A stretch of 64,000 nt of DNA, taken from an uncultured Gammaproteobacteria bacterium. Its GTDB lineage: Bacteria; Pseudomonadota; Gammaproteobacteria; Xanthomonadales; Xanthomonadaceae. Positions 2,674 to 39,109 of the stretch are shown here, in pieces; positions within the stretch are counted from its first letter, which is position 1, and each line of letters opens with the position of its first letter. The translations under genes and the position numbers were made by a program. The notes beneath the pieces are model-generated. The model saw only the letters and a list, made by a program, of their open reading frames with translations. It was not told the DNA's origin and made no database searches. The DNA is taken from the NCBI GenBank assembly GCA_966096795.1, contig CBHTVR010000011.1:324-64323 (forward strand), written 5' to 3'.

Positions 2674-2939
2674 GAGGGTGCCTCCTTTTGGGGAGCTTGC
2701 AGCCTGAGCCCATCGGCCAAAACAGGTTATGAATCGGCGCGTTATTCGCCAAACCGGTTCAGCTATTTGAAATGAAGTGTTGCACCGTATGCGGAGCTCA
2801 CGCGGCGGAATGGCCCCGGCAGACGGGGAACGGCAATTCACACAATGGGAGTCTCAAGCGACTAGAGAACCCTAGTTGATTCAGTCTTGACAGAGAATGC
2901 CCAGCTAACAATCCGATGGCTGTTGAAATTCCGGGGTAT

Positions 2940-3386
2940 CTACCATCCGAGCATAAGTCGACTTATGGGCGAGTCGAGCTTGAACTTTCTATATGAGGCC
3001 TTTTGGCATGTAAAACCCAGCGTTTGGCCTTCAAATTCACCTACTACACTTATTTGCAATAAGTTGTTCGCACCTCGCGAAACTGAGAGGTGCTCAACAC
3101 CCATCTGGCGCCCGATTACGATTCCTTTGAGGGTGAGGCATTCAACTAATTCGAAATGCAGCAGGTAAAAGTGAACGAGATCCGGCAGAATTCCAGCCAG
3201 AGTCATCGAATTGGATAGCCTTGTCTCAGCCTCTATCACTACGCCCAGCAGGACAGAATCGTGCAGGCCGTGCGCATCCAATTCCGACGCAACCATTTCA
3301 CCTTGCACTGAAAAGATGTCGCCTTCGCTCGAGAGCGAAAAAGCGATTCCCTTAACTACTTGAGGGACAAAATTCAATGTATCCAT
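2940..3386 (-). CDS. putative immunity protein of orphan Rhs cassette C (148 aa, cytoplasmic, no family recognised)
   Basis: Starts 6 nt after the stop of the Rhs fragment 3393..4406, same strand. It is AT-richer than the surrounding genome (hand count 29/60 G+C at 2941..3000). The call rests on position only. Confidence 0.5.
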   Translation of the reverse strand: MDTLNFVPQVVKGIAFSLSSEGDIFSVQGEMVASELDAHGLHDSVLLGVVIEAETRLSNSMTLAGILPDLVHFYLLHFELVECLTLKGIVIGRQMGVEHLSVSRGANNLLQISVVGEFEGQTLGFTCQKASYRKFKLDSPISRLMLGW

Positions 3387-3392
3387 TGTTCG

Positions 3393-4406: not shown

Positions 4407-4432
4407 GACCTGAAGCCCTTTCCCAGAGTCGT

Positions 4433-4627
4433 CTACCGCTTCGGTCCTGCCTTTGCTAGAGCGACCAGAAGAGCGATCGCAAGGACTACGTAGATCACGA
4501 TCGTTGTCCGATTGATTGAGATCAGGCCTATGTCAAGGCGATGTCTCTCTCGAAGGTAGAACAACAAGATCAAACCGGCGAGGACAGCGACAGACACGAG
4601 AAAATTGGTGCACTTTCGCAAATTCAT
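4433..4627 (-). CDS. putative immunity protein of orphan cassette B (64 aa, two predicted TM helices)
   Basis: The first ORF downstream of the Rhs fragment 4750..5703, same strand, 122 nt gap. Two hydrophobic stretches are visible: FLVSVAVLAGLILLFYL and TIVIYVVLAIALLVALA. The call rests on position only. Confidence 0.45.
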   Translation of the reverse strand: MNLRKCTNFLVSVAVLAGLILLFYLRERHRLDIGLISINRTTIVIYVVLAIALLVALAKAGPKR

Positions 4628-5340
4628 GTTCGATGGATCCTTATCATTCAGATAGCCATCTTGGCGTAAGAGGACAGTACGCTCAATCAGTTCGCCATGA
4701 GCGCGTCTCCATTCGCTCTAGATTTTATGAATCGGCCAAGTTCCTTAGCTCAGTTTTCATTCCTAGTTTCTTCCACCGTTCGCTCTCCCGCACAAGTAAA
4801 GAACGCGTTGACGTCGGAGACGATAAAGGCCGCCTTCACAATAGGAATACCTTTCACGAGTGCTCCAAGGCCCGATTCCGACATTTCCTTCGCTCCGTTT
4901 GTCTTGACGATGTGCTCTGCGCCTCTTATCGCCCCCTCTTTCGCAGTATTTTGGGCGATGCTCTTGGCGTCGAGCCCTACAACTGTGGCGACAGCGCAAA
5001 CGCCAATATTGGTGACCACCTGCCCCCCTGCCTTGGCAGCGGACGCGACGGTATTCTTCACGTCAATAGCTGCCGTCTTAGAATCCTGCTTGTCCGGCAC
5101 TTCTGCCGCGGTCTCGCTTCCTAAGCTTTTTGCCGCAGCTCTGGTATCGCCGCTTTCAGTGCCGCCTGCAAATACATTGGTAAGCACTTGGGCCAATGTC
5201 TCCGTCCAGGTTTGCGCCGATCGTCCATCCGGGTCTATAAATCTATAAGGATTGCTACTCGCGTAGCCATATCGATTGAAATTCGCTCCCGCAGCGGTTT
5301 GGACCTTAACAGGATCGACGGTGAGGAAACGGCCAATCTG

Positions 5341-5721
5341 CGGATCGTAGTACCGCTGCTGCATATAGGTCAGGCTGGTGCCCACATCGATGAAGTGGCC
5401 GGTGTAGCCCACGCCATCCACCGGCGCCGTCGGTGCGCCGTAGGGCGTGTAGCTGGTGCGGTTCAGGATTGCCTTGCTGGCGTCGGTGGTGACCACCGGG
5501 CTGCCCAGGGCGTCGGTGTGCTTGTAGCGGGCGTTGACGGCGCCGCCGGCCAGCGTGACCTCGTACAGGCCCACCAGGGTGTTGCCCAGGTAGATGTAGC
5601 CGTTGCGCACGCCGCGTCGGTTGCTCCAGTCCTGCAGCAGGCGGCCGTCCTGGCCGTAGCCGAAGTATTCGATCGTGCCGGTGGCCAGGTTCGTGGTGCG
5701 CACGCGGCGGCCGTTGCCGTC
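5341..5721. repeat. Rhs core handle, copy B (381 bp, nearly identical to 7090..7470)
   Basis: Hand alignment shows identity except a few positions near both ends (for example caggctggtgc vs cagcccagtac). Confidence 0.85.
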
Positions 5722-5772
5722 GGCCGCTCACGGGCATCCTGCCCTCCGCGGCACTCGCACATCCTGTGCAGC
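5722..5772. other. 51-bp insertion relative to the paralogous core sequence at 7470/7471
   Basis: Copy A reads ccgttgccgtc|gtagagatag. Copy B reads ccgttgccgtc + ggccgctcacgggcatcctgccctccgcggcactcgcacatcctgtgcagc + gtagaggtag. On the coding strand the insert translates as AAQDVRVPRRAGCP*AA. Confidence 0.85.
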
Positions 5773-5983
5773 GTAGAGGTAGCTTTCCAGGGTGTTCACC
5801 TGGCTCATGCGGTGGGCCAGGTCGAAGGTGTAGCTCTGGCCGCGGTAAAGGTTGGCGGTGATGTTGCCGCGGGCGTCGGTACTTACGGCTTGGGTCGAGA
5901 AGGTCGGTGCGGACGGGCGCTTGGGCGCTAAATTGCTTGGAGAACAGCAGTCGATCCATCCTACTCCGCAGGCTCGTGCGAAC

Positions 5984-6406
5984 CTAGCCCACCCTCTTTT
6001 GGATGACAAAAACCGTTATCAAGAAAGTCGACGCGCCCATGCACAACCAAGCAATCCAGAAGCTTAGCGGAAACGGATCTGACGCAGACAATGCAAAGAA
6101 TGCGGAATAACCGAGCATGAAGACAGCAGAAATTCCCGCAATTCCCTTGACAGAAGAAACCTTCATCACCGTCAGGCAAAACACGATGAAGGAAAAAACA
6201 GGATACAAGGTGAGAAGAAAGAACATTCCTGAAAATATTAGTCCACCACGCAACGCTCCAGCCACTCCAACATCCGCATAGAAAGCGCCAGGAGCAGAAA
6301 TTATTAGGGCTGTTGCAAGGAATGTGCAGGACACGAATTCCAGCACCTTTGTCAACAGGAATGATGCCGTGTACTTGGTAAACCGCTGCTTCATGTCTTT
6401 CCTCAC
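5984..6406 (-). CDS. putative immunity protein of cassette A (about 136-140 aa, polytopic membrane protein)
   Basis: Its start (GTG at 6406 or ATG at 6394) abuts or overlaps the Rhs stop at 6403. Four hydrophobic segments are visible, and it is AT-richer than the Rhs core. Confidence 0.55.
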   Translation of the reverse strand: MRKDMKQRFTKYTASFLLTKVLEFVSCTFLATALIISAPGAFYADVGVAGALRGGLIFSGMFFLLTLYPVFSFIVFCLTVMKVSSVKGIAGISAVFMLGYSAFFALSASDPFPLSFWIAWLCMGASTFLITVFVIQKRVG

Positions 6407-9012
6407 GGGCTGGATCGGCGCACTTCCGTCATGTACTTGCCCATAACATTCCTGTCGGCCTCACTTCCAAAATTAATCGCCCGTCCAAGTTCGGCGCGAG
6501 CCATATTGGCTGCCCTTGCAATATTCGGGTCCGTCACGGAATTCATCGAGCCAAAAAGATCCGACCTGTTCGCATTCGTGTTCATTGTAGAAATCACGTT
6601 GCGATAGAGCTCGGGATTCGATGCCTGAAGCCCATTAAGCGCCTTTTGGATGTAGCTTTGCTCATCCTTGACGAGACGCAAATCAAGAGCACGGCCGGTC
6701 TCCTTTATCTGACCGCTGTCTATCTTTGCTGCCTGCCCGTCGTTGAAGTCTGCAATTCCCTGGCTCAACGCATTTAAATAGTTGTCCGCTTCTGGATTCA
6801 CCCCGGCGATCGCCTTGCCGCCCGGAAGATCCATGTTGGCCAGATTCTCCGTCATATCAGACACGGCGCCGAAGTAGGTGGTGTCCGTCTTTCCACCACT
6901 GTACTTGGCGTCCAACTCATCATAATGGCCTGATCTGTCACAGTACTCTGATGTTTGCCCGACACATATTCGACCATCAATATCCTTGTTTGTGTTCGGA
7001 TTGTTGTTGGCGTACCAGTATCGATTGAAGTTCGCTCCCGTCGCGTTGTCGGCCGCGACCGGATCGGCGGAAATGAACCGCCCCACAATCGGATCATAAT
7101 AGCGCTGCTGCATATAGGTCAGCCCAGTACCCACATCGATGAAGTGGCCGGTGTAGCCCACGCCATCCACCGGCGCCGTCGGTGCGCCGTAGGGCGTGTA
7201 GCTGGTGCGGTTCAGGATTGCCTTGCTGGCGTCGGTGGTGACCACCGGGCTGCCCAGGGCGTCGGTGTGCTTGTAGCGGGCGTTGACGGCGCCGCCGGCC
7301 AGCGTGACCTCGTACAGGCCCACCAGGGTGTTGCCCAGGTAGATGTAGCCGTTGCGCACGCCGCGTCGGTTGCTCCAGTCCTGCAGCAGGCGGCCGTCCT
7401 GGCCGTAGCCGAAGTATTCAATCGTGCCGGTGTTCAGGTTCGTGGTGCGCACGCGGCGGCCGTTGCCGTCGTAGAGATAGCTTTCCAGGGTGTTGACCTG
7501 GCTCATGCGGTGGGCCAGGTCGAAGGTGTAGCTCTGGCCGCGGTAGGCGTTGGCGGTGATATTGCCGCGGGCGTCGGTGCTCACGGCCTGGGCTGCGCCG
7601 CCGTTGTAGGTCAGGGTGGCGAGCTGGTTGTTGGCGTTGTAGCCGTAGCTCAGCACGCTGGCGCCCAGGCGGTTGCTGCGCAGGTTGTCCAGCGGGTCGT
7701 AGCTGTAGATCGCGTTGTAGTTGCCGGTCAGGCTGCCCCACTGGTTCGTGCTGCGCACGCTGGTCAGGCGGTCCAGGCCGTCGTAGAGCGTGGGCGCCAG
7801 CACGCCCCAGCTGCGGTTGTCGGCCGCGGCGGCGTTGGAGGCATCGCTCAGGCTGAGCACATTGCCGTTGGCGTCATAAGTGTAGCTGTCGTCCAGCACC
7901 TTGGTGGTGATGCCGCCGCTGACGTAGCTGTCCAGACTGCGGGCCGGCAGCTGGCGATAGTTCTGGGTCATGGCGTGGGTGATGCCGTTGCCGTAGGTGA
8001 AGCCGGACATGGCGCCGTTCGGGTAGTAGGTGACGTTGCTGGCGAAGGTGCCGGCCTGCGTGGGCCGGCCCAGGCCATCGGGGGCGTAGCCCACCACCAA
8101 GCTGCCCGGGTAGGTCTGGCTGCTGAGGTGGCCGTTGCTGTTGTAGGCGTAGTCGAAGGTCCAAGGCAAAAGCGTATTGACCTGCAACACTTCCTTGGTC
8201 AACAACCGGCGCTGGTTGTAGGTGTAGGTGGTGGTGACGGTGTTGCTGCCGGGGTTGGTCGTCGTTAGCGTGTTGACCTTGCCGTCGGGGTAATAGCTGG
8301 TGGTGGTGTTGGAGGTGCCGGCGGGCGTGGTGCGCGTGAGCTCGCGGTTCATCGCGTCGTAGGTGCGGCTGATCTGGTCGGCGGCGGCGACATTGCCGCG
8401 GTCGGTGCTGCACACACCGGTGGACACCTGCCCATCGGCGCTCCAGTCGATGTTGCTGGCAGCGTCGTAGGCCAAAATGGTCGTGCCCGACTCGGGTTCA
8501 ATGGTCTCGCACAGGCGCTCGTTCGCGTCGTACACGTAGCTGCGCACGGCCGACAAAGTGTTGCCGGCATAGGTGCCGGCGCGGGTGACGGACTTGGGCT
8601 TGCCGAACACGTCGCGCGCGATCGTGGTCTTCACGCCTTCGGGCAGGAAGATCTCGGTCGGGGCGTCGGTGCCGGGCTGGTCGAAGGCCTGGTAGCTGGT
8701 GGTGGTCTGGAAGCCGCGCGGGTTGGTGACCTGGGTCTGGTAGCCCGCCAGGTACTGGGTGCTGCTGGTGAGCACCGCGCCGCCCGGGCTGGCGGCGTTG
8801 TCCTGCTGCACCTGCATCACCCGGCCCAGGGCGTCGTAGGTCGTGCGGGTGCCGGTGAGGTTGTCGTTGATGGACGTCAGCGTGCCCACCGGATAGCTGG
8901 TAAACACTTGCCGCCCGGACAGGTCGTAGCGCTGCACCACGTAGCTGCGCGTGGCCGCGTTGGCGCTGTCTAGGCTAACGCACCCCGGGAAATACGTTGA
9001 CGTTCCGGCCAA
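6403..9012 (-). CDS. large 5'-truncated (orphan) Rhs protein with C-terminal toxin of unknown type (cassette A)
   Basis: YD/Rhs repeats run throughout. The core end is RYYDPIVGRF...NNNPNTNKDIDGR (motif at 6970..6984), followed by a unique ~188 aa tail. Homology to other Rhs sequence begins at about 8975, exactly at the stop of the upstream immunity gene. The only start in frame is a TTG at 9012 inside that gene, and there is no signal peptide. Confidence 0.85.
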   Translation of the reverse strand: MAGTSTYFPGCVSLDSANAATRSYVVQRYDLSGRQVFTSYPVGTLTSINDNLTGTRTTYDALGRVMQVQQDNAASPGGAVLTSSTQYLAGYQTQVTNPRGFQTTTSYQAFDQPGTDAPTEIFLPEGVKTTIARDVFGKPKSVTRAGTYAGNTLSAVRSYVYDANERLCETIEPESGTTILAYDAASNIDWSADGQVSTGVCSTDRGNVAAADQISRTYDAMNRELTRTTPAGTSNTTTSYYPDGKVNTLTTTNPGSNTVTTTYTYNQRRLLTKEVLQVNTLLPWTFDYAYNSNGHLSSQTYPGSLVVGYAPDGLGRPTQAGTFASNVTYYPNGAMSGFTYGNGITHAMTQNYRQLPARSLDSYVSGGITTKVLDDSYTYDANGNVLSLSDASNAAAADNRSWGVLAPTLYDGLDRLTSVRSTNQWGSLTGNYNAIYSYDPLDNLRSNRLGASVLSYGYNANNQLATLTYNGGAAQAVSTDARGNITANAYRGQSYTFDLAHRMSQVNTLESYLYDGNGRRVRTTNLNTGTIEYFGYGQDGRLLQDWSNRRGVRNGYIYLGNTLVGLYEVTLAGGAVNARYKHTDALGSPVVTTDASKAILNRTSYTPYGAPTAPVDGVGYTGHFIDVGTGLTYMQQRYYDPIVGRFISADPVAADNATGANFNRYWYANNNPNTNKDIDGRICVGQTSEYCDRSGHYDELDAKYSGGKTDTTYFGAVSDMTENLANMDLPGGKAIAGVNPEADNYLNALSQGIADFNDGQAAKIDSGQIKETGRALDLRLVKDEQSYIQKALNGLQASNPELYRNVISTMNTNANRSDLFGSMNSVTDPNIARAANMARAELGRAINFGSEADRNVMGKYMTEVRRSSP
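7090..7591. repeat. Rhs core handle, copy A (7090..7470 matches 5341..5721; 7471..7591 matches 5773..5893; 7090..7454 matches 4014..4378)
   Basis: Hand alignment of the DNA. Confidence 0.85.
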
Positions 9013-9580
9013 AATACAAATCGCGCATATGGCTCTGCCCTGGGTCGCGAAACTGGAATCCAGTTAGTCCGTCTCTAACGACTAACTCAGGAATCATTCG
9101 AGTAACAAACACGGACGCAAAAAACCTGCCTTTCAGCTTGAATATCGGCGGAACAGAACCGATCTCCGTATATCGAAAAGCGTGCTTTCGAATGCTTGTT
9201 ATTTCACCGCTTTCAGATCGCCCACAATCAGATAACGCCTCGTCCAGAATATCTGCACTGGCCAACACATTCATTAGGTAGTACTTTCGTCCGCGCGTTT
9301 CGGTAAAAAACCGATACTCCGCGCAACTTGGGGCGGCCCGATCGAATAATTCTGCCGCGCGTTCCGATAGAAGAGGAAACGGCTCCTTCCAAGCCATCGC
9401 ATCCGCCAGCGTGCTCCGACTAGCGACCACCCTGTGGGGTGGCGCAATCCAATCGATCGGAAGCGGGCTTCCATTAAATATCTGATCAACGTAGCCCCGC
9501 GGGAGCGGAGGATCCGACAGCACATATGGATGACCATTGCTTTCGACAGACAGCTGGAATACGTCTGGAACTGTGTTCAT
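8975..9580 (-). CDS. putative immunity protein of the AHH toxin, DUF1629/Imm11-like (201 aa)
   Basis: Its ATG overlaps the Rhs TGA (ATGA at 9577..9580). The sequence pattern PLLSERAAELF...YYLMNVL...DILDEALS...PPIFKLKG...VFVTRMIPELVVRDGLTGFQFRDP matches my memory of DUF1629. It needs an HMM check. Confidence 0.6.
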   Translation of the reverse strand: MNTVPDVFQLSVESNGHPYVLSDPPLPRGYVDQIFNGSPLPIDWIAPPHRVVASRSTLADAMAWKEPFPLLSERAAELFDRAAPSCAEYRFFTETRGRKYYLMNVLASADILDEALSDCGRSESGEITSIRKHAFRYTEIGSVPPIFKLKGRFFASVFVTRMIPELVVRDGLTGFQFRDPGQSHMRDLYFGRNVNVFPGVR

Positions 9581-12489
9581 TTATTCTCCAAATCCGACGC
9601 AATCGCACGAAGCTCCTTCCTGATCTCGGCGGAACTAGAAGCCGCGTCCGTACCTCTTCTCTCAGCAGCCTCGACTCTCACTTGAACCTCCTGGTGATAT
9701 TGGAATGTGTGAACGCGCTGGTGGGCTGAAGTTGTCATCGCTGCGCCGTTATCTGCCTCATGAACGCTTACGCCGTTGCGCTCCAGAATAGCCCTAGATT
9801 CTGCGGCGCGCTTATCGCTTTGGGCAACAATATGGTGCGCGTGCTCCTCTCCTTTTATCACACCGCGATCAGCCGCGGCCATATTTCTGGCAAGCTTTGA
9901 TCCTTTGGCGATTTCTGCGCCGGCTTGCTCCACCTTCTTGGCAGTTTCAAGCACATGCGCCACCTCACTTATTCCTGGAATCGGAGACGCCACGCCCACC
10001 GCATCGATGGCCACCATCGCTACCGCCATTCCGATGCCCTGTCCGGATCGGCATGCGTGCACTAGCTCTCCAACGTCTGCTAGGAAAAATCCTATCTCTA
10101 GCGGACTTCTTCCATCGGGATCTTTGAATTCGTATGGCGAGCTGTTGGCATACCAAAATCTATTTCCGTTTAAACCGTCCCGAGTACTTACAGCTATCGG
10201 GTCTACACTGATGAATCTGGCAATCTGCGGGTCGTAGTACCGCTGCTGCATGTACGTCAGCCCAGTCGCCCGATCCATCACGTGGCCGGTGTAGCCGGTG
10301 CCGTCGATGACGGTGGCGCCGAAGGTTTCGCCGTAGGGGGTGTAGCTGTTGCGCTTGACGATGTTGCGGTTGGCATCGGTCTCCGCGACTGGGCTGCCCA
10401 GGGCGTCGGTGTGTTGGTAGCGGATGGCAGTGGCGCCTGTGCCCCAGGCCACTGCGCGCGTTGCCACCTGGGTGTTGCCGAGGTAGATGTAGCTGAGGTT
10501 TTGGGAACGACGAGCCTCTGAGGTGTAGAGCACCTGCCCACTTTGGCTATAGATCCAGAACGTGGTCTTGCCGTCGGCATCGGTGGTCTGCACGCGCCGG
10601 CCCTGACCGTCGTAGCGGTAGGTTTGCAGGCCGGTCACCTGGCTCATGCGGTTGACGCTGTCGAAGGCGTAGGCCTGGCTGTTCTTGCTGGTGGTGTTTC
10701 CGTGGCTGTCGTAGGCCAGGGTGATCAGCGTTGTGCCAGTCGGGTTCTTGATGTTCGCCAGGCGATTCGCGGCGTCGTAGTTGTATCGGTACTGGCGACT
10801 GCCCTGGTCGGCAACCCGCAGGTTGTCCAGCGCGTCATAGCCAAATACGGCGTTTCCCCACTGCTGCGGCGATACCGCTGCTGTCAGGCGATCGGCGCCG
10901 TCATAAGCCATTCCACGCGTGGTCAGGCCGTTCTGGGCCTGGTCGACGATATCGGTGACATTTCCGTTGGCGTCGTACAGGTAGGTGTCGTCGATTACCT
11001 TGGTGACTGAGCTGCCGTTGATGTAACTGTCCTGGCTACGTGTCGGCAGCAGGCGTGTATTCGCCTGCATGGCATGGGTAATCCCGTTGCCGTAGTTGAA
11101 CCCGATGATCGCGCCGTTTGCCGCGTACCGGATCGCGCTGGCATAGGTCACGCCACCACTTCCGCTAACCTGGGTCGTGCGCCCAAGCGCGTCCGGCGCG
11201 AAGCTGACAACGTGGTTGTCCGGATAGGTAAGCTGCGAGAGACTGCCGTTGGCATCGTAGCCATAGAGCAGGCCGAACAACGTTGAGGCATTGGTGGAGG
11301 TCTCCGACACCAGCAGACGGCGCTTGTTGTAGCCGTAGGTCGTGGTGACGGCATTTCCGCCTGGGTTGTTCACCGTCAGTGATTTCGTTGCTCCGTCTAG
11401 AAAATAGGTCTGGGCAAGGTCAGCGCTGCCGCCCGGCGTGATTACCGCCTGCAGGCGGTTAAGCGCGTCGTATTGCCGCCGCACCTTCTGGGCTTCGGAC
11501 ACGCTGGAGCGATCGCAGGTGGCGCCTGTGAGGCTGGTGCCTTCCGCGACCCAGACGACATTACCTGCCGCGTCATAGTCCACCAGGGTCGCGCCAGACT
11601 CCGGATTGATCGTCTTGCACAGTCGCTCGTAGGCGTCGTAGACGTAGGTCCGCGTTGCGGACACGGCGGCGGCGGGCGCTTTGACCGTGTAACTGCTGAT
11701 GGTGGATGTAGTGCTGGCCCCGGCGTTGTCGGTAGCTATGGCCTTGAATTGGTAGCTGCCTGCCGCTGCCGAGCTCAACTGCCAGGAATACGGCGCGCTG
11801 GTATCGGTACCCAACAGTGCTCCGTTCGACCAGAATGAAACGGAAGCCACGCTGCCGCCGGCATCGGAGGCATTCGCCGCCAGCGAAATCGTGGCGGGCG
11901 CGAAGCTTGAGCCGCCGTTGACCGGAGATGTGAGCTGGACCGTGGGCGGAGTGTTGGGCCCTGACACCGTGATGGTTAGGTTCGGCGATTGAGCACCGAC
12001 CCAGGCGACGCCTTCTTGCAGCATTTGCCACTGGAAGTTGTAAGTCCCCGCGACCGCTGGCGCCTTGACGGTGAAATTGAAGACCGCCGTCTGCCCGGTA
12101 GCGATTGACGTTGGCACTGCGACTCTGTTCAGGCCCCAGACGCTGTTGTCGGCAGGATTCTGTGAACCAAGCTTGTAGCCCTGGCTGGCAGACCATGTCT
12201 TGGAACCCAGATTGGTCATCTGCAGACTGACCGCGTAGCTCTGCCCCGTTGCCATGCTCAGGGGCACGGTCTGCGATGCGAACTGTGCGTCCTGAGCTGG
12301 CAGCGGCGAAGGATCACAGGTTCCACAGATACTGGCCGTTCCGCCGGTACTCGAGCCGCCGCCTGATTTGCCGCCGCCCGATTGCGCGAACGCGGTCGGG
12401 GACAGCACCAGGGCGATGGCAGCGACGAGCGCCGCAATACTGCGCAGGAGCGCCGGCTTGATGTGCAGTTGCTCATTCACGAACCACAT
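9577..12489 (-). CDS. Rhs protein, distal shell half: signal peptide, NBR1-like Ig domain, bacterial Ig-like domain, YD repeats, AHH-family nuclease toxin (970 aa)
   Basis: ORF 9577..12540 trimmed to the ATG at 12489 (AGGGGA 7 nt upstream). Signal peptide is MWFVNEQLHIKPALLRSIAALVAAIALVLSPTAFA. The NBR1-like stretch is FASQTVPLSMATGQSYAVSLQMTNLGSKTWS...GTYNFQWQMLQEGVAWVG. The Ig-like stretch is PPTVQLTSPVNG...YQFKAIATDNAG. YD repeats begin at RTYVYDAYERLC. The core end is NSSPYEFKDPDGR (10108..10122). The toxin tail contains GEEHAHHIVAQ...NGVSVHEADNGAAMTTSAHQRVH. Confidence 0.9.
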   Translation of the reverse strand: MWFVNEQLHIKPALLRSIAALVAAIALVLSPTAFAQSGGGKSGGGSSTGGTASICGTCDPSPLPAQDAQFASQTVPLSMATGQSYAVSLQMTNLGSKTWSASQGYKLGSQNPADNSVWGLNRVAVPTSIATGQTAVFNFTVKAPAVAGTYNFQWQMLQEGVAWVGAQSPNLTITVSGPNTPPTVQLTSPVNGGSSFAPATISLAANASDAGGSVASVSFWSNGALLGTDTSAPYSWQLSSAAAGSYQFKAIATDNAGASTTSTISSYTVKAPAAAVSATRTYVYDAYERLCKTINPESGATLVDYDAAGNVVWVAEGTSLTGATCDRSSVSEAQKVRRQYDALNRLQAVITPGGSADLAQTYFLDGATKSLTVNNPGGNAVTTTYGYNKRRLLVSETSTNASTLFGLLYGYDANGSLSQLTYPDNHVVSFAPDALGRTTQVSGSGGVTYASAIRYAANGAIIGFNYGNGITHAMQANTRLLPTRSQDSYINGSSVTKVIDDTYLYDANGNVTDIVDQAQNGLTTRGMAYDGADRLTAAVSPQQWGNAVFGYDALDNLRVADQGSRQYRYNYDAANRLANIKNPTGTTLITLAYDSHGNTTSKNSQAYAFDSVNRMSQVTGLQTYRYDGQGRRVQTTDADGKTTFWIYSQSGQVLYTSEARRSQNLSYIYLGNTQVATRAVAWGTGATAIRYQHTDALGSPVAETDANRNIVKRNSYTPYGETFGATVIDGTGYTGHVMDRATGLTYMQQRYYDPQIARFISVDPIAVSTRDGLNGNRFWYANSSPYEFKDPDGRSPLEIGFFLADVGELVHACRSGQGIGMAVAMVAIDAVGVASPIPGISEVAHVLETAKKVEQAGAEIAKGSKLARNMAAADRGVIKGEEHAHHIVAQSDKRAAESRAILERNGVSVHEADNGAAMTTSAHQRVHTFQYHQEVQVRVEAAERRGTDAASSSAEIRKELRAIASDLENK

Positions 12490-12582
12490 GAGGAATCCCC
12501 TAGGCTGGTATTGCAGCGGCGCTGGGCCCGACCTTGGCACCGCACTTGGTCGAGTGATTGCGCAAAAGTTTTTGCTCGGCCG

Positions 12583-15429
12583 CTAGCCGCCGGGTCCCGA
12601 GCGCGTAATCGAGCGCGGCTTGCCGAACAGGTCGCGGTCGATGGTTGTAGTGATGCCCTCGGGTGCTTCGATCAATCGAGGCAACTCCTCGCTGGGTGTA
12701 TCGTAGATCTGGAAACTTGTGGTGGTCTGGAACTGCCGTGGATTGGTTACCCGCGTCCGGAACGCGGTCAGGTACTCGCGGGTGCTTGCCAATACGCCCT
12801 GCTCGGAGTCCTGCCTGACCGCGACCACCCTGCCGAGTGCGTCGTACTCGGTGGACACGCCCTGCAACGCCTGGCTGATCAGGCTTAGCTGCGCAACGGG
12901 ATAGGAGCTGAAGATCTCCCGGCCATCTTCGTCATAGCGGTGGACGACGAAGCTGCGGGACTCGGCATTCGAAGTGTCCTCGGTCAGCGTCAGGCGCGGC
13001 CGCCACATGACATCGTAGAAGTTGGTGACCCGGGCGTTGCCCGTGTCCACCGTTTGCTTCCAGTGGCCTGGCGGTAGCCCGTACTCGTCGACCGCAATCT
13101 GTACAAAATTGCGATTGACCGGATTCCACGCAACCGTGTCGCCCGCGGGAAAGTCAATCCGCGACATGCGGCCGAGGCTGTCATAGCGATATGCGGTACT
13201 GTCGCCTAGTTGATTGCGGACGCTGGATATCTGACCGAAATCATCCACGCTCGGTGCCACCGTGCTCAGGTCGGCAAACTTGATAGTTTGCGGAATGCCG
13301 CGCTTGTGATCGCTCAGGGTGGTGACGTTGCCATTAGGATCAGTGATGCTCGCGAGCATCCCGCTGGCCGTGTAGCCATAGGTGGCGACGAGCAGCCCGA
13401 AGTTGTATGTCCGCTGCGGAAGAATGTGCGGGTCATAGTCCGTCTGGCTGACCAGGCGGCCGCCAACCGTGATCTTCCACGGTTGGCCGAGCACCCATTG
13501 GCCGTCTGCTGGCCAGTACAAGGTGGTATCGGACTTGCTCGTACCAGTGGAGTTGGACCGCACAACGGTTTCAGGCTGCCCGAAGCGGTCGAAGCTCTGG
13601 GTTTGCCTATTGAACGTGACGCCCTGAAGGGTCAGCTGGTGCAGCACTTCCGGCGTCAGGCGTTCGGTGGGCTCATCATTGGTAAACGTGAGCGGGTCGG
13701 CCATCGCCTGCCCGAGGCGCGAGGGATAGGCCCAGGGGGCAGTCGGGTCTGCGTAGGCGAATGCTTCGGTCTGCAGCCCGTCAGGCGTGTCCAGACCGGT
13801 CTGGGAAACCGCGTCCACCTTGGAGAGCAGCTTGCCTTCGAACGCGCCCCACTTGGTGCTGTACGTGTAGTGACTTGTGCGCTGGGACGGATCCGTTACC
13901 TCGACCCATTGCGTGGTCTTGCATGGCGAGGCCAGGCACTCGGACTCCGTGCTACCGGCGGCCGCGGAGTAACGATAGACCCAAGTGATCGGGTCCACGC
14001 CAGGCCCCGAGAAGATCTTGCTGGTCAATGACAGGGAGATATAAACCGGAGGAAGATCCTCGCTGGGTGGATTCTCTACGCCATCGTGATAGACGCAGGC
14101 GGTCGGAACCCAAGATCGCGCATGCCCGCGGATCGACAGGTTGAAGCGGCCAACGAGCCCACTCGGATGCACGATCTGGATGGGAACAAAATTCTCGGCT
14201 TCCGGCGCGCTGGTGTAGGTGCGAACGCCACAGGGATTCATACCCTGCGGACTTCCGAGCTTGACCACCGATCCCGAGGCCATGGACAACTGCCAGCGGC
14301 TGGCATCGGGCTGTACAACCGCGACCAGGGATCGGGTAGCGGGGTCGGTGGGATTGAGGTACTGGTAGCTCCAGGTCCGCGCATCCGCCTGGCCCGGTTG
14401 CAGGGTGATGCTGTCGATCAACGGTGCGTCGGTTCGCCATTGCACCTGGACCTTGCGGCCATCGCTGGCATTTACCTCGCGCAGCTGGTCGCCAACATAG
14501 CGGTAGCTCACCCAGTTGCCGAATCGATCCTCGACCCGCGATGCATACAGGTGTGCGACCCGGCGAGGCATGAACTCCTCGTCCATGCCCCAGTACACCG
14601 ACGGATCGTTGGTGCCGTCCAGCGCCGCTACTGTTGAATCGTCGGTTCCACTGGTGCCGGCCGTCGTCGTCAAGGAAGGGTGAGGGGTCCAAGGAATCTG
14701 CTCGACAAGGGTGGATACCGCCGGGCCGTAGGAGAGATTGTCGAACCAGTATCGTGTGCCATCCGGCGCAGTCGCCAGGAAGCCCTCCCCCGGCATGCCG
14801 TTGGATGTGGTGGGCAAGCAGGACAGCACCCAGTGTGCCGGCGTCAGCGCCGGATAGTCCGCTGCACTACCGGATGGGACCAATGAATTTTCCGCGGTGC
14901 GCTTGAGCAGCGGCTGGCTGCTTCCGTCGCCGGTGATCAGCTGGTAGCCGTGCCACCAGGCGAGGCCAAACACGAAACTGCCTTCGCTGATCGGCCCGAA
15001 CTGGCTGCAGCGCGCCGGGCTGCCGGCGACCTCGGCGCTTTCAACGTTCCAGGCGCCCTGCATGCCCATGCGCGAGCCCGGCACCAGCGTGGAGATTCGT
15101 GGTGCCGCCAGGTCCCAATCGCCCATCGGCAGATCGAAACTCAGCGATAGCGGAGAACCACTGACTTCATAGGTCCGGGTCAGCGCAATGGTTGGGCCTA
15201 TGCCCGGAAAGCTGATGTCCGTCTGGCGAAAACTGATGCCGCCGGTATACAGGCTGACGGACTCTCCGAACGGGGTCTCGCCCAGCGGCTGTATGGTCTC
15301 CCCGACCTTGATGCGGTTGAGATATTCGGTCGACGGATCGTTGATGGCGATGTCAGCATGGGCGACACCTATCGCCGTGGCCAGGAAGAAGGCAGCGGAA
15401 ACCGCGGCTGAGTGGCGCTTGCTTTGCAT
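12583..15429 (-). CDS. Rhs protein, proximal shell half: signal peptide then Rhs-type N-terminal region and YD repeats, no toxin domain (948 aa)
   Basis: ORF 12583..15480 trimmed to the ATG at 15429. Signal peptide is MQSKRHSAAVSAAFFLATAIGVAHA|D. The Rhs opening motif is SVSLYTGGISFRQTDISFPGIGPTIALTRTYEV. YD repeats include YGYTASGMLASITDPNGN and YRYDSLGRMSRIDFPAGD. Its last ~125 aa align to residues ~20-150 of ORF 6403..9012. Confidence 0.85.
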   Translation of the reverse strand: MQSKRHSAAVSAAFFLATAIGVAHADIAINDPSTEYLNRIKVGETIQPLGETPFGESVSLYTGGISFRQTDISFPGIGPTIALTRTYEVSGSPLSLSFDLPMGDWDLAAPRISTLVPGSRMGMQGAWNVESAEVAGSPARCSQFGPISEGSFVFGLAWWHGYQLITGDGSSQPLLKRTAENSLVPSGSAADYPALTPAHWVLSCLPTTSNGMPGEGFLATAPDGTRYWFDNLSYGPAVSTLVEQIPWTPHPSLTTTAGTSGTDDSTVAALDGTNDPSVYWGMDEEFMPRRVAHLYASRVEDRFGNWVSYRYVGDQLREVNASDGRKVQVQWRTDAPLIDSITLQPGQADARTWSYQYLNPTDPATRSLVAVVQPDASRWQLSMASGSVVKLGSPQGMNPCGVRTYTSAPEAENFVPIQIVHPSGLVGRFNLSIRGHARSWVPTACVYHDGVENPPSEDLPPVYISLSLTSKIFSGPGVDPITWVYRYSAAAGSTESECLASPCKTTQWVEVTDPSQRTSHYTYSTKWGAFEGKLLSKVDAVSQTGLDTPDGLQTEAFAYADPTAPWAYPSRLGQAMADPLTFTNDEPTERLTPEVLHQLTLQGVTFNRQTQSFDRFGQPETVVRSNSTGTSKSDTTLYWPADGQWVLGQPWKITVGGRLVSQTDYDPHILPQRTYNFGLLVATYGYTASGMLASITDPNGNVTTLSDHKRGIPQTIKFADLSTVAPSVDDFGQISSVRNQLGDSTAYRYDSLGRMSRIDFPAGDTVAWNPVNRNFVQIAVDEYGLPPGHWKQTVDTGNARVTNFYDVMWRPRLTLTEDTSNAESRSFVVHRYDEDGREIFSSYPVAQLSLISQALQGVSTEYDALGRVVAVRQDSEQGVLASTREYLTAFRTRVTNPRQFQTTTSFQIYDTPSEELPRLIEAPEGITTTIDRDLFGKPRSITRSGPGG

Positions 15430-16958: not shown

Positions 16959-17095
16959 GGGTAACCCACCAGCAAGGGAACGGACAGCCAGTATATGCGC
17001 CGCCGGTGACCGGGCCAGCCCTGGGGTATGCGTTGCAACTCTGCGACAAAACTCCTGCTACGATGTTCTGGTACGGCCCACCAGGGGGAGGCGCC

Positions 17096-19273
17096 ATGCC
17101 ACAAGTTCCTGGGCTGCCCATCGAACGCTTGCGGGCCGCCCTCGCTGATTCCTACGTGATCGACCGGGAACTGGGTCGAGGCGGAATGTCCGCCGTCTTT
17201 CTCGCGCAAGACCTGAAGCACGACCGCTCGGTCGCCATCAAGGTGCTGCATCCCGAGCTCGCTGCCAATCTCGGCCCTGATCGATTCCTCCAGGAAATCC
17301 GGGTCGCGGCGCGCCTGAACCATCCGCACATCCTGCCGCTGTTCGACTCTGGCAATGCCGACGGCATGCTGTTCTACGCCATGCCCTACGTCGAAGGCGA
17401 ATCCTTGCGCGAACGCCTCGACCGCGAACAACAGCTCGGTGTCGAAGAAGCCGTGCGCCACGGCCATGCCATCGCCTCGGCACTCGACTACGCCTCGCGC
17501 CAGGGCGTGATCCACCGCGATGTGAAGCCCGAAAACGTGATGCTTTACGAAGGCGAGGCGATGGTGATGGATTTCGGCATCGCCAAGGCCGTCAGCTCCG
17601 CCGATTCCGAGACGCTTACGCAGACCGGCATGATGGTGGGCACGCCCGCCTACGTCAGCCCCGAGCAAGCCGCTGGCGAAGTGCAGTTGGACGGCCGCAG
17701 CGACCAATACAGCCTGGCCTGCATGGTCTACGAGATGCTGGCCGGCGAACGGCCGTTCTCGGGCGCCAATGCCCAGGCCGTGATGAGCAAGCGCTTCACG
17801 GAGACCGCGCGGCCACTGCGCACCATTCGTTCCGGCGTGCCCGAGTTCATCGAACATGCGGTGGCCAAGGCCATGGCCACCAGCCCCGCCGGCCGCTTCG
17901 CGACCACGGCGCAGTTCGGCAAGGCGCTGGTTTCCGGGTCCATGAGCACGCCGAGCAACACCATGGTGCTTCCCGCGCCGGTGGTGTCGGCCGCAAAATC
18001 CGTGGCGGTGCTGCCGTTCTCCAACATGAGTACTGACGCCGACAGCGAGTACTTCACCGACGGCATGGCCGAAGAGATCATCAATGCCCTGTCCAAGGTG
18101 CAATCCCTGCGCGTGGCCTCGCGCACTTCGTCCTTCGCCTTCAAGGGCAAGAACGAGGACATCGGCGAGATCGGCAAGAAGCTCAAGGTGTCCACGGTTC
18201 TTGAAGGCAGCGTGCGCAAGATGGGCAACCGCCTGCGCATCACCGCGCAATTGGTCAACGTGGCCGACGGTTACCACTTGTGGTCGGAGCGTTACGACCG
18301 CGAGATGGAGGATGTGTTCGCCATCCAGGACGACATCTCCCAAGCCATCGTGAAGGCGCTGCGGGTCATCCTGAGCGATGACGAGAAGAAACAGATCGAG
18401 AAGCAGCGCGCCGGCAACGTCGAAGCCTACGAGTTCTACCTGCGCGGGCGCCTGAACTTCCACCAGCTCAAGCGTTCCAGCCTGGAAAGCGCGCGACTGA
18501 TGTTCAACAAGGCCATCGAAGTGGACCCGGGCTATGCGCTTGCCCACGCCGGCGTGGCCGACTGCTATTCCCTGCTGTACACGTATTTCGATGCCCGCGA
18601 GTTCAACCTGCGCCAGGCCGAAGCGGCCAGTGCCCGGGCGCTGGAGCTGGAACCGGATTTGGCCGAGGCACACTTGTCACGCGGACTGGCGGTGTCGCTG
18701 AGCAAGCACTTCGACGAGGCCGAGCGCGAGTTCGAGCAGGCCATCGTCCTGGGACCGCAGTTGTTCGAAGCCTTCTACTGGTACGGGCAGGCCAAGCTGT
18801 CGCAGGGCAAATTCGCCGAAGCGGTGAAGATGTTCGAGCGCGCGGCATCTTTGCGGCCCGAGGACTACCAGGTGTCCAACTTCATCGGCCTGGCCCTGAA
18901 ATCGCTCGGACGCAACGACGAGGCCATCGCCAGCTACCGCAAGCAACTCAAGCTCGGCGAAGAACATCTGGAACGCCATCCGGACGATTCCCGCGCCTGC
19001 ATCATGGCGGCCAATGCGTACGCCAACCTGCAGGACGCCGATCGCTCGGCCCACTTCGCAGCGCGCGCCATCGCGATGGATCCGGAAGACCCGATGCTGC
19101 TGTACAACGTGGCCTGCCTGTACGGCGTGCTCGGCCGTGCCGATGACTGCCTGACCGCGCTGGAGCAAGCGGTGAACAAGGGTTGGGGCGACAAGGCCTG
19201 GCTGGAGCACGACAGCGACTTCGACACCGTCCGCAACCAACCGCGCTACCTCGCGCTTATTCGGGCGATGTAA
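17096..19273 (+). CDS. Ser/Thr protein kinase with central TolB-N-like domain and C-terminal TPR repeats (725 aa)
   Basis: Trimmed to the ATG at 17096 (GGGGGAG upstream). Hanks kinase motifs are present: GRGGMSAVF, VAIKVL, HRDVKPENVML, DFGIAK, GTPAYVSPEQ. The central stretch is KSVAVLPFSNMS...YFTDGMAEEIINALS. No TM segment is seen. Confidence 0.9.
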   Translation: MPQVPGLPIERLRAALADSYVIDRELGRGGMSAVFLAQDLKHDRSVAIKVLHPELAANLGPDRFLQEIRVAARLNHPHILPLFDSGNADGMLFYAMPYVEGESLRERLDREQQLGVEEAVRHGHAIASALDYASRQGVIHRDVKPENVMLYEGEAMVMDFGIAKAVSSADSETLTQTGMMVGTPAYVSPEQAAGEVQLDGRSDQYSLACMVYEMLAGERPFSGANAQAVMSKRFTETARPLRTIRSGVPEFIEHAVAKAMATSPAGRFATTAQFGKALVSGSMSTPSNTMVLPAPVVSAAKSVAVLPFSNMSTDADSEYFTDGMAEEIINALSKVQSLRVASRTSSFAFKGKNEDIGEIGKKLKVSTVLEGSVRKMGNRLRITAQLVNVADGYHLWSERYDREMEDVFAIQDDISQAIVKALRVILSDDEKKQIEKQRAGNVEAYEFYLRGRLNFHQLKRSSLESARLMFNKAIEVDPGYALAHAGVADCYSLLYTYFDAREFNLRQAEAASARALELEPDLAEAHLSRGLAVSLSKHFDEAEREFEQAIVLGPQLFEAFYWYGQAKLSQGKFAEAVKMFERAASLRPEDYQVSNFIGLALKSLGRNDEAIASYRKQLKLGEEHLERHPDDSRACIMAANAYANLQDADRSAHFAARAIAMDPEDPMLLYNVACLYGVLGRADDCLTALEQAVNKGWGDKAWLEHDSDFDTVRNQPRYLALIRAM

Positions 19274-19275
19274 CC

Positions 19276-28074: not shown

Positions 28075-28113
28075 TCGAAAAATCCTCTGGGTGGGACAGC
28101 TTTACCGGGGACC

Positions 28114-30021: not shown

Positions 30022-30052
30022 GGTCTGGGCTTCGATGCTCGGATTCGGGGCG

Positions 30053-37260: not shown

Positions 37261-37270
37261 GGGAAGGTCC

Positions 37271-39091: not shown

Positions 39092-39109
39092 GGTCTGGCC
39101 TGGTAGGGA

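What the first reader, a model, noticed from the sequence alone, without database searches (positions are those of the whole stretch)
9577..15429. Rhs shell encoded as two consecutive Sec-signal proteins, split by a signal peptide + NBR1-like + Ig-like module that a neighbouring paralogue lacks
Seen in the sequence:
- Gene 12583..15429 (948 aa) has a cleavable signal peptide (..ATAIGVAHA|DIAIND). It then runs straight into Rhs sequence (SVSLYTGGISFRQTDISFPGIGPTIALTRTYEV, later YRYDSLGRMSRIDFPAGD). It stops at ..FGKPRSITRSGPGG without any toxin domain.
- 93 nt later, gene 9577..12489 starts with its own signal peptide (..LVLSPTAFA|QS). This is followed by a Gly/Ser linker, an NBR1-like Ig domain and a bacterial Ig-like domain. 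YD repeats resume only at ATRTYVYDAYERLCKTINPESG.
- The downstream paralogue 6403..9012 aligns colinearly to both genes. TRSYVVQRYDLSGRQVFTSYP...TNPRGFQTTTSYQ...FGKPKSVTRAG matches the last ~125 aa of the first gene. Ten residues later, SAVRSYVYDANERLCETIEPESG matches the second gene after its Ig module.
- So, relative to a continuous core, about 0.93 kb (11653..12582: stop, spacer, RBS, signal peptide, NBR1-like, Ig-like) is an insertion. It cuts the shell into two separately exported chains.

Established knowledge: Rhs/YD shells are normally single-chain. The known two-chain case is TcB/TcC of ABC toxins. T6SS-delivered Rhs proteins carry PAAR or VgrG-binding N-termini rather than Sec signals.

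Inference: this may be a bipartite Rhs cocoon assembled after Sec export, with a possible surface- or glycan-binding module at the seam. That would be a delivery architecture I do not recognise as described for Gram-negative Rhs toxins.
Basis: partly seen in the sequence, partly recalled or inferred. Interest (0 to 1): 0.8.

Follow-up and report, generated by a model that had tools for sequence, protein, structure and literature searches.

The report
Secreted Rhs toxin shell split across genes
This bacterium encodes the protective shell of an Rhs toxin as two neighbouring genes, each with its own export signal; the same split recurs in many related soil, plant and clinical bacteria, which suggests the shell is put together from separate pieces after they leave the cytoplasm.

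Summary
Gene A (12583..15429, minus strand) encodes a signal peptide plus about two thirds of an Rhs shell and no toxin. Gene B starts 93 nt later (9577..12489). It encodes its own signal peptide, a Gly/Ser linker, two Ig-like domains, the rest of the shell, the Rhs core and an AHH nuclease. An Imm11 immunity gene and three orphan rhs modules follow.

The split is not an artefact. Of 77 related loci, 14 stop at the same residue and restart with a signal peptide plus Ig-like domains. The other 63 read straight through. Some genomes divide the shell into three genes, each with its own signal peptide.

A fused, toxin-less relative appears to be Bcn-A of Xanthomonas perforans. Bcn-A is a bacteriocin active in cell-free supernatant, and its activity is lost in a type II secretion (T2SS) mutant.

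Most likely reading: this is a Sec-exported, probably T2SS-secreted Rhs bacteriocin whose cocoon assembles from separately exported chains, as TcB/TcC does. Assembly itself was not tested. Sec/T2SS-type Rhs toxins were already known. I found no paper describing a shell split over several genes. Verdict: new variant of a known kind.

The parts
12583..15429 (-). Gene A (948 aa): signal peptide plus the N-terminal two thirds of the Rhs/YD shell. No Rhs core and no toxin.
   Evidence: Translation. RHS_repeat E 3e-12, weak DUF6531 at residues 55-89. YD_repeat_2x. AlphaFold2 pLDDT 88.6, pTM 0.85, almost all beta. Foldseek matches Rhs, teneurin and TcB shells; the best TM-scores (query-normalised) are 0.47-0.51, to TcB chains.
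15355..15429 (-). Signal peptide of A (residues 1-25, ..GVAHA|DIA).
   Evidence: Sequence and Shine-Dalgarno site. The equivalent N-terminal signal peptide is present in almost all fused and split relatives.
13537..13548 (-). Position in A (residues 628-631, after FDRFGQPETVVRSNS) that corresponds to the second chain break in three-gene relatives.
   Evidence: Y-type proteins end here and X-type proteins begin here with a new signal peptide. In the AlphaFold2 model it is a turn between strands 619-626 and 631-638.
12490..12582 (-). 93-nt A-B spacer carrying the Shine-Dalgarno sequence of B.
   Evidence: Sequence. No promoter-like or terminator-like site. In relatives the spacing runs from a 4-nt ATGA overlap to about 150 nt.
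9577..12489 (-). Gene B (970 aa): signal peptide, linker, two Ig-like domains, the C-terminal third of the shell, the Rhs core and an AHH nuclease.
12385..12489 (-). Signal peptide of B (residues 1-35, ..PTAFA|QS).
   Evidence: Conserved in all 14 split loci and in 44 of 52 B-type proteins. The AlphaFold2 model has a helix at residues 12-28.
12289..12384 (-). Gly/Ser-rich linker with a CGTCDP motif (residues 36-67).
   Evidence: pLDDT is about 30 for most of this stretch. The same CxxCDP motif occurs in L001 and L002.
11962..12288 (-). Ig-like domain 1, NBR1-like (residues 68-176).
   Evidence: Pfam N_BRCA1_IG E 7.8e-5, below the curated cut-off. PF16158 recurs in many B-type homologues. Predicted beta-sandwich, pLDDT mostly 80-93.
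11680..11946 (-). Ig-like domain 2, Big_7 (residues 182-270).
   Evidence: Pfam Big_7 E 8.6e-17. PDB sequence hits include chitodextrinase 9x9r, the CelAly B1 domain 9kvu and CbhA modules 3pdd. Foldseek against 9kvu gives a target-normalised TM-score of 0.95. A Big_7 domain is present in every split locus.
10345..11664 (-). C-terminal part of the YD shell in B (residues 276-715).
   Evidence: Aligns to orphan residues 153 onward and to RhsA 7Q97 residues 778-1278. pLDDT above 90. Best target-normalised TM-scores 0.51-0.56, to TcC chains.
10111..10344 (-). Rhs-associated core (residues 716-793), with RYYDP..RFISVDP and ..KDPDGR|S.
   Evidence: TIGR03696 E 1.4e-18. Sequence. Low confidence when B is modelled alone.
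9577..10107 (-). Variable C-terminal toxin region. The AHH (HNH/EndoVII) nuclease lies at residues 869-966 (9592..9885).
   Evidence: Pfam AHH E 3.8e-15.
8975..9580 (-). Immunity gene (Imm11), overlapping the stop codon of B by 4 nt.
   Evidence: Pfam Imm11 E 1.9e-6. Tox-AHH with Imm11 is a listed toxin/immunity pair (PMC3482391).
6403..9012 (-). Orphan rhs module 1. It is 5'-truncated and has a continuous (unsplit) junction, its own core and a different C-terminal toxin.
5984..6406 (-). Small, largely hydrophobic (probably multi-pass membrane) protein; candidate immunity gene for orphan 1.
   Evidence: Translation. No Pfam hit. Assigned by position only.
4750..5703 (-). Orphan rhs module 2 (core plus a new C-terminal toxin). 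The upstream RHS homology continues in another reading frame at 5728..6009.
3393..4406 (-). Orphan rhs module 3 (core plus a new C-terminal toxin).
2940..3386 (-). Candidate immunity gene for orphan 3.
   Evidence: Position only.

Best explanation
This is a polymorphic Rhs toxin locus of the signal-peptide (Sec/T2SS-type) Rhs family that is common in Lysobacterales. Here the beta-cocoon is encoded in two co-transcribed genes.

Proposed mechanism, step by step:
1. Chain A (plug plus the first two thirds of the shell) and chain B (Ig-like domains, the last third of the shell, the core and the AHH nuclease) are each carried across the inner membrane unfolded by Sec. Each loses its signal peptide to signal peptidase I. 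This rests directly on the sequence and its conservation.
2. Outside the cytoplasm the two chains dock edge to edge into one closed cocoon around the toxin, as TcB and TcC do. B's Ig-like domains hang from the seam on the outside. This step is inferred.
3. The particle leaves the cell through the type II secretion system and acts as a diffusible, bacteriocin-like toxin. This is inferred from Bcn-A, which appears to be a relative.
4. The Ig-like domains probably bind a surface structure of the target or of the producer. This is a weak inference.
5. Imm11 protects the producer. The three orphan modules are a reserve of alternative toxins.
For: (1) Conserved split. 14 of 77 related loci, and over 35 protein clusters of 890-960 aa, stop at the same residue (..FGKPxxIxRSGxx*). 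They restart 0-150 nt later with a signal peptide and 1-2 kb of Ig-like domains. Five of the 14 show an ATGA stop/start overlap, and X. arboricola L084 does too. Eight more A/B pairs appear to share contigs, judged from matching contig lengths.

(2) One fold. 63 of 77 loci, and the window's own orphan, read through the junction.

(3) A second, independent break. In three-gene relatives (Y, X and B), each chain has its own signal peptide. The gene order varies but the genes stay linked: Pseudoxanthomonas winnipegensis L085 is collinear, while S. maltophilia L082 and metagenome locus L086 are rearranged. X-type proteins form more than 40 clusters of about 340 aa.

(4) Structure predictions. A is modelled with confidence (pTM 0.85) and is closest in shape to TcB. 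B's shell is closest to TcC. B's core and toxin are poorly placed when B is modelled alone.

(5) Export route. Nearly every family member has an N-terminal signal peptide. There is no PAAR, VgrG or TcA, and no conserved accessory gene within 7 kb. Bcn-A is 1,398 aa and its 3' primer encodes LYQLLL, matching the fused relatives P0073, P0057 and P0047. Its activity is found in supernatant and is lost in an xpsD mutant (PMC7259588).

(6) Age of the insertion. Big_7 identity to the window tracks the identity of the junction flanks (r 0.88-0.93).
Against: - No experiment and no multimer model shows that A binds B; I could not run either.
- B modelled alone still gives a confident half shell, so a stand-alone role cannot be excluded.
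- The T2SS step is borrowed from Bcn-A. Bcn-A is fused and toxin-less. Its membership in the family was inferred from its length and a primer-encoded C-terminus, not from an alignment.
- No T2SS genes flank the locus, and a folded cocoon may be large for a secretin channel.
- Whether the split arose once is unresolved. In my crude trees the split loci fall into 3-5 groups mixed with fused ones.
- Signal peptides were judged by rule, not with SignalP.
Confidence: 0.6

Rival explanations
1. B alone is the working toxin: a short, secreted Rhs with an incomplete shell and Ig-like binding domains. A is a separate secreted shell-like protein with its own role, for example as an adhesin or helper, and does not form a common cocoon with B.
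For: B alone is modelled with a confident half shell. Small Rhs proteins with incomplete containers are mentioned by Kielkopf et al. (bioRxiv 10.1101/2024.02.26.582050). Toxin-less shells exist in the same family (Bcn-A type). XadM of X. oryzae is described as a surface Rhs-like adhesin (cited in PMC3911176). In S. maltophilia the A pieces lie on the opposite strand from B.
Against: In the 14 split loci, L081 and L084, every A-type gene sits directly upstream of a B-type gene, often with overlapping stop and start codons. No A-type gene was found alone; only a lone Y-like gene was seen, in L078. The break point is a hairpin turn inside a fold that is continuous in 63 loci. The core and toxin of B are not placed confidently without the rest of the shell. 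The Y and X pieces of three-gene loci make little sense as independent proteins.
Confidence: 0.2
2. The split is damage. A frameshift, an assembly error or an insertion broke a single rhs gene, so A or B is a pseudogene.
For: Rhs loci are rich in fragments; three orphans lie just downstream. One related locus from a metagenome-assembled genome (L056) has an in-frame stop near the 5' end of A.
Against: The same stop position recurs, with full-length intact A and B reading frames and a signal peptide on B, in proteins only 33-60% identical across several genera. No simple frameshift could join the two frames, because about 0.93 kb of folded domains and a signal peptide lie between them.
Confidence: 0.02
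3. A and B are the B and C subunits of an ABC (Tc) toxin, or a T6SS Rhs effector with an unusual N-terminus.
For: A is closest in shape to TcB and B to TcC. Weak PDB sequence hits fall on T6SS Rhs cores.
Against: There are no SpvB or TcdB mid domains and no TcA-sized gene in 64 kb. There is no PAAR, VgrG or Eag-type chaperone. Both chains carry Sec signal peptides, which cytoplasmically loaded Tc and T6SS cargo lack.
Confidence: 0.04
4. The two chains do form one cocoon, but it leaves the cell in outer-membrane vesicles or stays on the cell surface or in the periplasm, rather than passing through the T2SS.
For: No T2SS genes are linked to the 77 loci. A folded Rhs cocoon is large. XadM is reported as surface-located.
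Against: Bcn-A activity is in cell-free supernatant and depends on xpsD.
Confidence: 0.14

Closest known systems
TcB/TcC subunits of ABC (Tc) toxin complexes (e.g. YenB/YenC2 4IGL, TcdB2-TccC3 4O9X)
   Same: The Rhs cocoon is built from two polypeptides encoded by adjacent genes. The second chain carries the Rhs core and the variable toxin. Predicted A is most similar in shape to TcB (query-normalised TM-score about 0.5) and B's shell to TcC (target-normalised TM-score 0.51-0.56).
   Different: There is no TcA partner and no SpvB or beta-propeller domains in A. Both chains here have Sec signal peptides. B carries Ig-like domains at the seam. A rough estimate suggests the break is not at the TcB/TcC boundary. 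Three-chain versions exist. Sequence identity to Tc proteins is only 8-19% in the Foldseek alignments.
Bcn-A bacteriocin of Xanthomonas perforans, and the T2SS-linked Xanthomonas Rhs family XRhs F VIII (PMC7259588; bioRxiv 10.1101/2025.05.08.652813)
   Same: It appears to belong to the same protein family. Fused relatives of 1,398-1,403 aa align with A residues 32-943 at about 35% identity and with B's shell. Their C-terminus, LYQLLL, matches the 3' primer used to clone Bcn-A. They have an N-terminal signal peptide. The toxin works without cell contact, and Bcn-A activity depends on xpsD.
   Different: Bcn-A is one chain. It has no Rhs core or fused toxin, ends in an fn3-like domain, and needs small accessory ORFs. 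The window's system is split in two, has Ig-like domains at the seam, and has a classical core, AHH toxin and Imm11 immunity gene.
T6SS Rhs effectors (RhsA 7Q97, Tre23 7PQ5, TseI)
   Same: YD shell, Rhs core with autoproteolysis motifs, encapsulated C-terminal toxin, immunity gene and orphan modules. After self-cleavage these effectors also exist as several associated fragments.
   Different: Those fragments come from one polypeptide that is made and loaded in the cytoplasm. They have PAAR or VgrG-binding N-termini and no signal peptides.
WapA of Bacillus subtilis and other Sec-dependent YD toxins
   Same: An N-terminal Sec signal peptide on an Rhs/YD polymorphic toxin, with delivery that does not use T6SS.
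   Different: WapA is a single chain in a bacterium with one membrane. There is no outer membrane to cross.
AB5 toxins such as cholera toxin (a comparison of mechanism only)
   Same: The subunits are exported separately by Sec, assembled in the periplasm, and then secreted by the T2SS. This part is from my own knowledge.
   Different: The fold is unrelated. No homology is claimed.

Membership tests
Rhs/YD-repeat polymorphic toxin | YD/RHS repeats | tested here: met
   RHS_repeat: A E 3e-12, B E 8.3e-29. TIGR01643 in both.
Rhs/YD-repeat polymorphic toxin | Rhs-associated core with autoproteolysis motifs before the toxin | tested here: met
   TIGR03696 at B residues 716-793, E 1.4e-18. Motifs RYYDP..RFISVDP and DPDGR are present. 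Cleavage itself was not tested.
Rhs/YD-repeat polymorphic toxin | Variable C-terminal toxin followed by a cognate immunity gene | tested here: met
   AHH E 3.8e-15 and Imm11 E 1.9e-6. The pair is listed in PMC3482391.
Rhs/YD-repeat polymorphic toxin | Beta-cocoon fold | tested here: met
   The AlphaFold2 models of A and B match Rhs, teneurin and Tc shells with Foldseek E-values down to 1e-25. This is in silico evidence only.
Rhs/YD-repeat polymorphic toxin | Shell encoded as one polypeptide (usual, not strictly defining) | tested here: not met
   Two genes, separated by a stop codon, a 93-nt spacer and a second signal peptide.
Sec/T2SS-type Rhs toxins (Zhang 2012 class; Bcn-A / XRhs F VIII) | N-terminal Sec signal peptide and no PAAR, WXG or TPS leader | tested here: met
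   Rule-based signal peptides on A and B, conserved across the family. No other leader domain was found.
Sec/T2SS-type Rhs toxins (Zhang 2012 class; Bcn-A / XRhs F VIII) | Homology to Bcn-A | tested here: inconclusive
   P0073 (1,398 aa) aligns with A 32-943 at 35% identity and with B 248-685. Its C-terminus, LLYQLLLN, matches the Bcn-A 3' primer. The Bcn-A sequence itself was not available. The N-terminus encoded by the 5' primer (MRHPS) differs from that of P0073.
Sec/T2SS-type Rhs toxins (Zhang 2012 class; Bcn-A / XRhs F VIII) | Secretion dependent on the T2SS | not testable with these tools
   Known only for Bcn-A, through the xpsD mutant (PMC7259588). No T2SS genes are linked to the loci.
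Tc (ABC) toxin B/C pair | TcB with an SpvB N-terminal domain and TcdB mid (beta-propeller) domains | tested here: not met
   No such Pfam hits in A at E 0.01 or better.
Tc (ABC) toxin B/C pair | TcA partner gene in the locus | tested here: not met
   No ORF above 1,224 aa in the window. The flanking genes are housekeeping genes, kinases and pilin-like genes.
Tc (ABC) toxin B/C pair | Cocoon formed by two chains | not testable with these tools
   Inferred from fused relatives and from fold similarity. No multimer prediction was available.
T6SS Rhs effector | PAAR, prePAAR or VgrG-binding N-terminus, with VgrG or chaperone genes adjacent | tested here: not met
   None in A or B or in the neighbouring genes that were searched. 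No conserved accessory gene in the flanks of 77 loci.

The most novel reading that the evidence does not exclude
Lysobacterales make a free-standing, secreted Rhs toxin particle whose cocoon is assembled outside the cytoplasm from two or three separately Sec-exported chains. A variable Ig-like module at the seam serves as its targeting domain. This would be a self-contained delivery system, like a bacteriocin, that needs neither T6SS nor TcA.
Probability: 0.35. Interest if true: 0.8.

Novelty: new variant of a known kind. Interest (0 to 1): 0.6.

Why it matters
Rhs cocoons are thought of as single chains, or as TcB/TcC pairs, that fold in the cytoplasm around their toxin. If two or three chains that cross the inner membrane separately can still build a closed shell around an unfolded toxin, three things follow.

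- Encapsulation must be able to happen in the periplasm or outside the cell, and this can be tested directly.
- It gives a concrete handle on the poorly understood T6SS-independent Rhs route, in organisms that matter: Stenotrophomonas maltophilia, Xanthomonas and Lysobacter biocontrol strains.
- The variable Ig-like module is a candidate for the part that decides which cells are attacked.

There is also a practical consequence. Surveys that sort Rhs genes by length would count the 340-aa and 600-aa shell pieces as 'orphans' or 'pseudogenes', as in bioRxiv 10.1101/2025.05.08.652813.

Tried and rejected
- Looking up the window's own A protein in the contig index found nothing.
- A PDB sequence search with A gave only marginal repeat hits.
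- Neighbour-joining trees of the A part and of the junction flanks did not settle whether the split arose once. Branches are long. Split loci fall into 3-5 groups. The window's fused orphan and the fused locus L046 nest beside the window's split group. Loci such as L039 are mosaics, so I make no claim about monophyly.
- A search for conserved accessory genes within 7 kb of 77 loci found only further rhs copies and antisense ORF artefacts. The Band_7 gene upstream of A is therefore not part of the system.
- The promoter and terminator scan was uninformative, apart from showing no site in the A-B spacer and a terminator-like hairpin upstream of A.
- Seven literature searches found no description of an Rhs shell split over two or three genes.
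- Rejected explanations: frameshift or assembly artefact, programmed recoding (spacing and frame vary between loci), Tc toxin, and T6SS effector.
- A lipoprotein signal and a Tat signal were considered. Lipobox-like and twin-arginine motifs occur only sporadically.
- SignalP and AlphaFold-Multimer were not available. Both structure-prediction jobs went on the single chains.

Full report
**What is in the window.** On the minus strand, gene A (12583..15429, 948 aa) starts with a typical Sec signal peptide (MQSKRHSAAVSAAFFLATAIGVAHA|DIA) behind an AGGGGG ribosome-binding site. It ends ..FGKPRSITRSGPGG*. Pfam and NCBIfam find only YD/RHS repeats and a weak DUF6531 hit in it, with no Rhs core and no toxin.

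After a 93-nt spacer with its own ribosome-binding site, gene B (9577..12489, 970 aa) begins with a second signal peptide (..LVLSPTAFA|QS). Then follow, in order:
- a Gly/Ser linker containing CGTCDP;
- an NBR1-like Ig domain (Pfam E 7.8e-5, below the curated cut-off);
- a Big_7 domain (E 8.6e-17);
- YD repeats;
- the Rhs-associated core (E 1.4e-18);
- an AHH nuclease (E 3.8e-15).

An Imm11 gene (8975..9580) overlaps B's stop codon. The A-B spacer contains no promoter-like or terminator-like site, and a terminator-like hairpin lies just upstream of A. This fits one transcript covering A, B and the immunity gene.

**The colinearity claim holds.** The downstream ORF 6403..9012 matches A 818-945 (53% identity, E 1e-39). 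Six residues later it matches B 276-794 (49% identity, E 7e-152). Relative to that copy, 11665..12594 (930 nt) is extra. The ORF is not a complete paralogue. It is a 5'-truncated orphan rhs module, the first of three. Orphans 2 (4750..5703) and 3 (3393..4406) each have the same core followed by a different C-terminal region. Small candidate immunity genes follow orphans 1 and 3, and the whole stretch has lower GC content.

**The split is conserved, not damage.** Homologues of A fall into two length classes. Over 35 clusters are 890-960 aa, at 34-62% identity. Many others are about 1,600 aa, from Rhodanobacter, Lysobacter, Xanthomonas, Arenimonas and relatives.

A genome scan returned 80 loci, of which 77 could be scored. 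In 63 of them one reading frame runs through the junction, with less than 45 nt between the two homology blocks. In the other 14, A stops at the homologous residue and a new gene starts 0-150 nt later. These 14 include two loci in Lysobacter enzymogenes Lj46, and loci in L. koreensis, Lysobacter spp. Root76, TAF61 and CCNWLW3, S. maltophilia Sm46PAILV and Stenotrophomonas PUT21.

In all 14, the new gene opens with a signal peptide. It is followed by 1.0-2.1 kb of Ig-like domains, always including a Big_7 domain. Five of the 14 have an ATGA stop/start overlap. No fused locus carries the insert, and no split locus lacks it.

Further evidence points the same way:
- B-type proteins (signal peptide, Ig-like domains, C-terminal shell, core and a variable toxin) are numerous. 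They occur in cultured S. maltophilia, X. arboricola, L. enzymogenes and Dyella.
- 44 of 52 B-type proteins pass a simple signal-peptide rule. The other 8 look like miscalled starts.
- Gene tables for Lysobacter sp. Hz 25 and X. arboricola show A directly followed by B and an immunity gene.
- Big_7 identity to the window tracks the identity of the junction flanks (r 0.88-0.93). The module is therefore old and has diverged together with its surroundings.
- Crude trees could not decide whether the split arose once. Loci such as L039 are clearly mosaic.

**A second break, also with a signal peptide.** In S. maltophilia, the gene next to a B-type gene is not a normal A. Two genes on the opposite strand encode A residues 631-943 (X, 341 aa) and A residues 2-562 (Y, 585 aa). 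Both have signal peptides. Y ends after the motif FD..ARPxSIxxSS. This is the internal counterpart of A's own C-terminal FGKPRSITRSG.

X-type proteins of about 340 aa form more than 40 clusters at 43-98% identity. In Pseudoxanthomonas winnipegensis the three genes lie in the order Y, X, B and then the immunity gene. In a metagenome contig they are arranged differently again. In every case each chain has its own signal peptide. The Y|X break carries a signal peptide only, with no Ig-like domains.

So the constant companion of every break in this shell is an export signal. That is what one expects if each chain crosses the inner membrane on its own and the shell forms afterwards.

**Structure predictions.** A is predicted with high confidence (pLDDT 88.6, pTM 0.85) as an almost all-beta protein. 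Foldseek matches Rhs, teneurin and Tc shells. The highest query-normalised TM-scores (0.47-0.51) are to TcB chains.

In B, the two Ig-like domains and the shell at residues 281-713 are confident. The core and toxin are not (pLDDT about 30-60). B's shell is closest to TcC chains (target-normalised TM-score 0.51-0.56). I could not run a multimer prediction, so the interface itself remains untested.

**Export route and what is already known.** Nearly every member of the family, fused or split, has an N-terminal signal peptide. There is no PAAR, VgrG or TcA, and the flanks of 77 loci contain no conserved accessory gene.

The literature already covers parts of this:
- Signal-peptide RHS toxins are catalogued as 'T2SS/Sec-dependent', and Tox-AHH with Imm11 is a listed pair (PMC3482391).
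- A 2025 preprint predicts T2SS-linked Rhs families in Xanthomonas and Ralstonia. It sorts Rhs genes by length, so shell pieces would be filed as pseudogenes or orphans.
- Bcn-A of X. perforans is a 1,398-aa RHS protein. Its activity is found in cell-free supernatant and disappears in an xpsD mutant (PMC7259588).

Fused, toxin-less relatives of the window's genes (P0073, 1,398 aa; P0057; P0047) end in ..LLYQLLLN. The Bcn-A 3' primer encodes LYQLLL. Bcn-A therefore very probably belongs to this family, although I had no Bcn-A sequence to align.

I found no paper that describes an Rhs shell divided over two or three genes with separate signal peptides.

**Conclusion.** Shown here: two (elsewhere three) conserved, separately signal-tagged chains that together equal one fold. 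Inferred: docking after export, secretion by the T2SS, and a binding role for the Ig-like module. The Sec signal on a Gram-negative Rhs toxin is not new, but I could find no description of the multi-gene shell. I rate it a new variant of a known kind, with interest 0.6.

Noticed in passing
window 2940..9012 (minus strand): An array of three orphan rhs modules lies downstream of the Imm11 gene. Their cores are nearly identical to one another but not to gene B. Each has a different C-terminal region. Small candidate immunity genes lie at 5984..6406 and 2940..3386. Orphan 2 is frameshifted upstream (5728..6009). GC content falls to 49-58% across 2500..7000.
   Followed up: partly
L082/L083 (S. 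maltophilia), L085 (Pseudoxanthomonas winnipegensis CP095475), L086/L087 (metagenome): Three-gene versions of the shell: Y (about 575-645 aa), X (about 340 aa) and B, each with its own signal peptide. The gene order and strand differ between genomes, but the genes stay linked.
   Followed up: yes
P0073, P0057, P0047 (Xanthomonas, about 1,400 aa); P0051, P0055, P0082: Fused family members that lack the Rhs core and toxin. They end in an fn3- or Big-like domain plus ..LLYQLLLN (or ..LNLLLQ). P0073 has the same length as Bcn-A of X. perforans and the C-terminus encoded by its 3' primer. XadM of X. oryzae may also be of this type, but I could not check that.
   Followed up: partly
L078 365..2071: A lone Y-like gene (A residues 8-626, 25% identity) sits directly upstream of a complete fused rhs gene in a Pseudoxanthomonas metagenome-assembled genome.
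   Followed up: no
L015 (Solimonas flava), N-terminus of the fused gene; window 12289..12384: The leader of a fused relative (signal peptide, then CPGCDP, then a GGGGSSGGGS linker) resembles the leader of the window's gene B (signal peptide, Gly/Ser linker, CGTCDP). B's leader may therefore derive from an rhs 5' end.
   Followed up: no
window 34768..40773 (minus strand): A cluster of four genes with prepilin-type N-methylation motifs or a PilX_N domain, one of them 874 aa. They look like type IV pilus minor pilins or pseudopilins. The cluster lies about 20 kb from the rhs locus. No secretin or ATPase was seen among the ORFs I searched.
   Followed up: partly
window 17006..21450 (plus strand): Two tandem 755-aa paralogues, each with a Ser/Thr protein kinase domain followed by TPR repeats.
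   Followed up: no
window 27415..30105 (plus strand), 48402..49703 (minus strand) and 59530..60615 (minus strand): Long ORFs (896, 433 and 361 aa) with no Pfam match.
   Followed up: no
window 6955..8268 (plus strand) and other long ORFs antisense to the rhs genes: Long antisense ORFs inside the GC-rich rhs genes. Similar ones recur opposite orphans in 12 related loci. They are most likely composition artefacts, not genes.
   Followed up: partly
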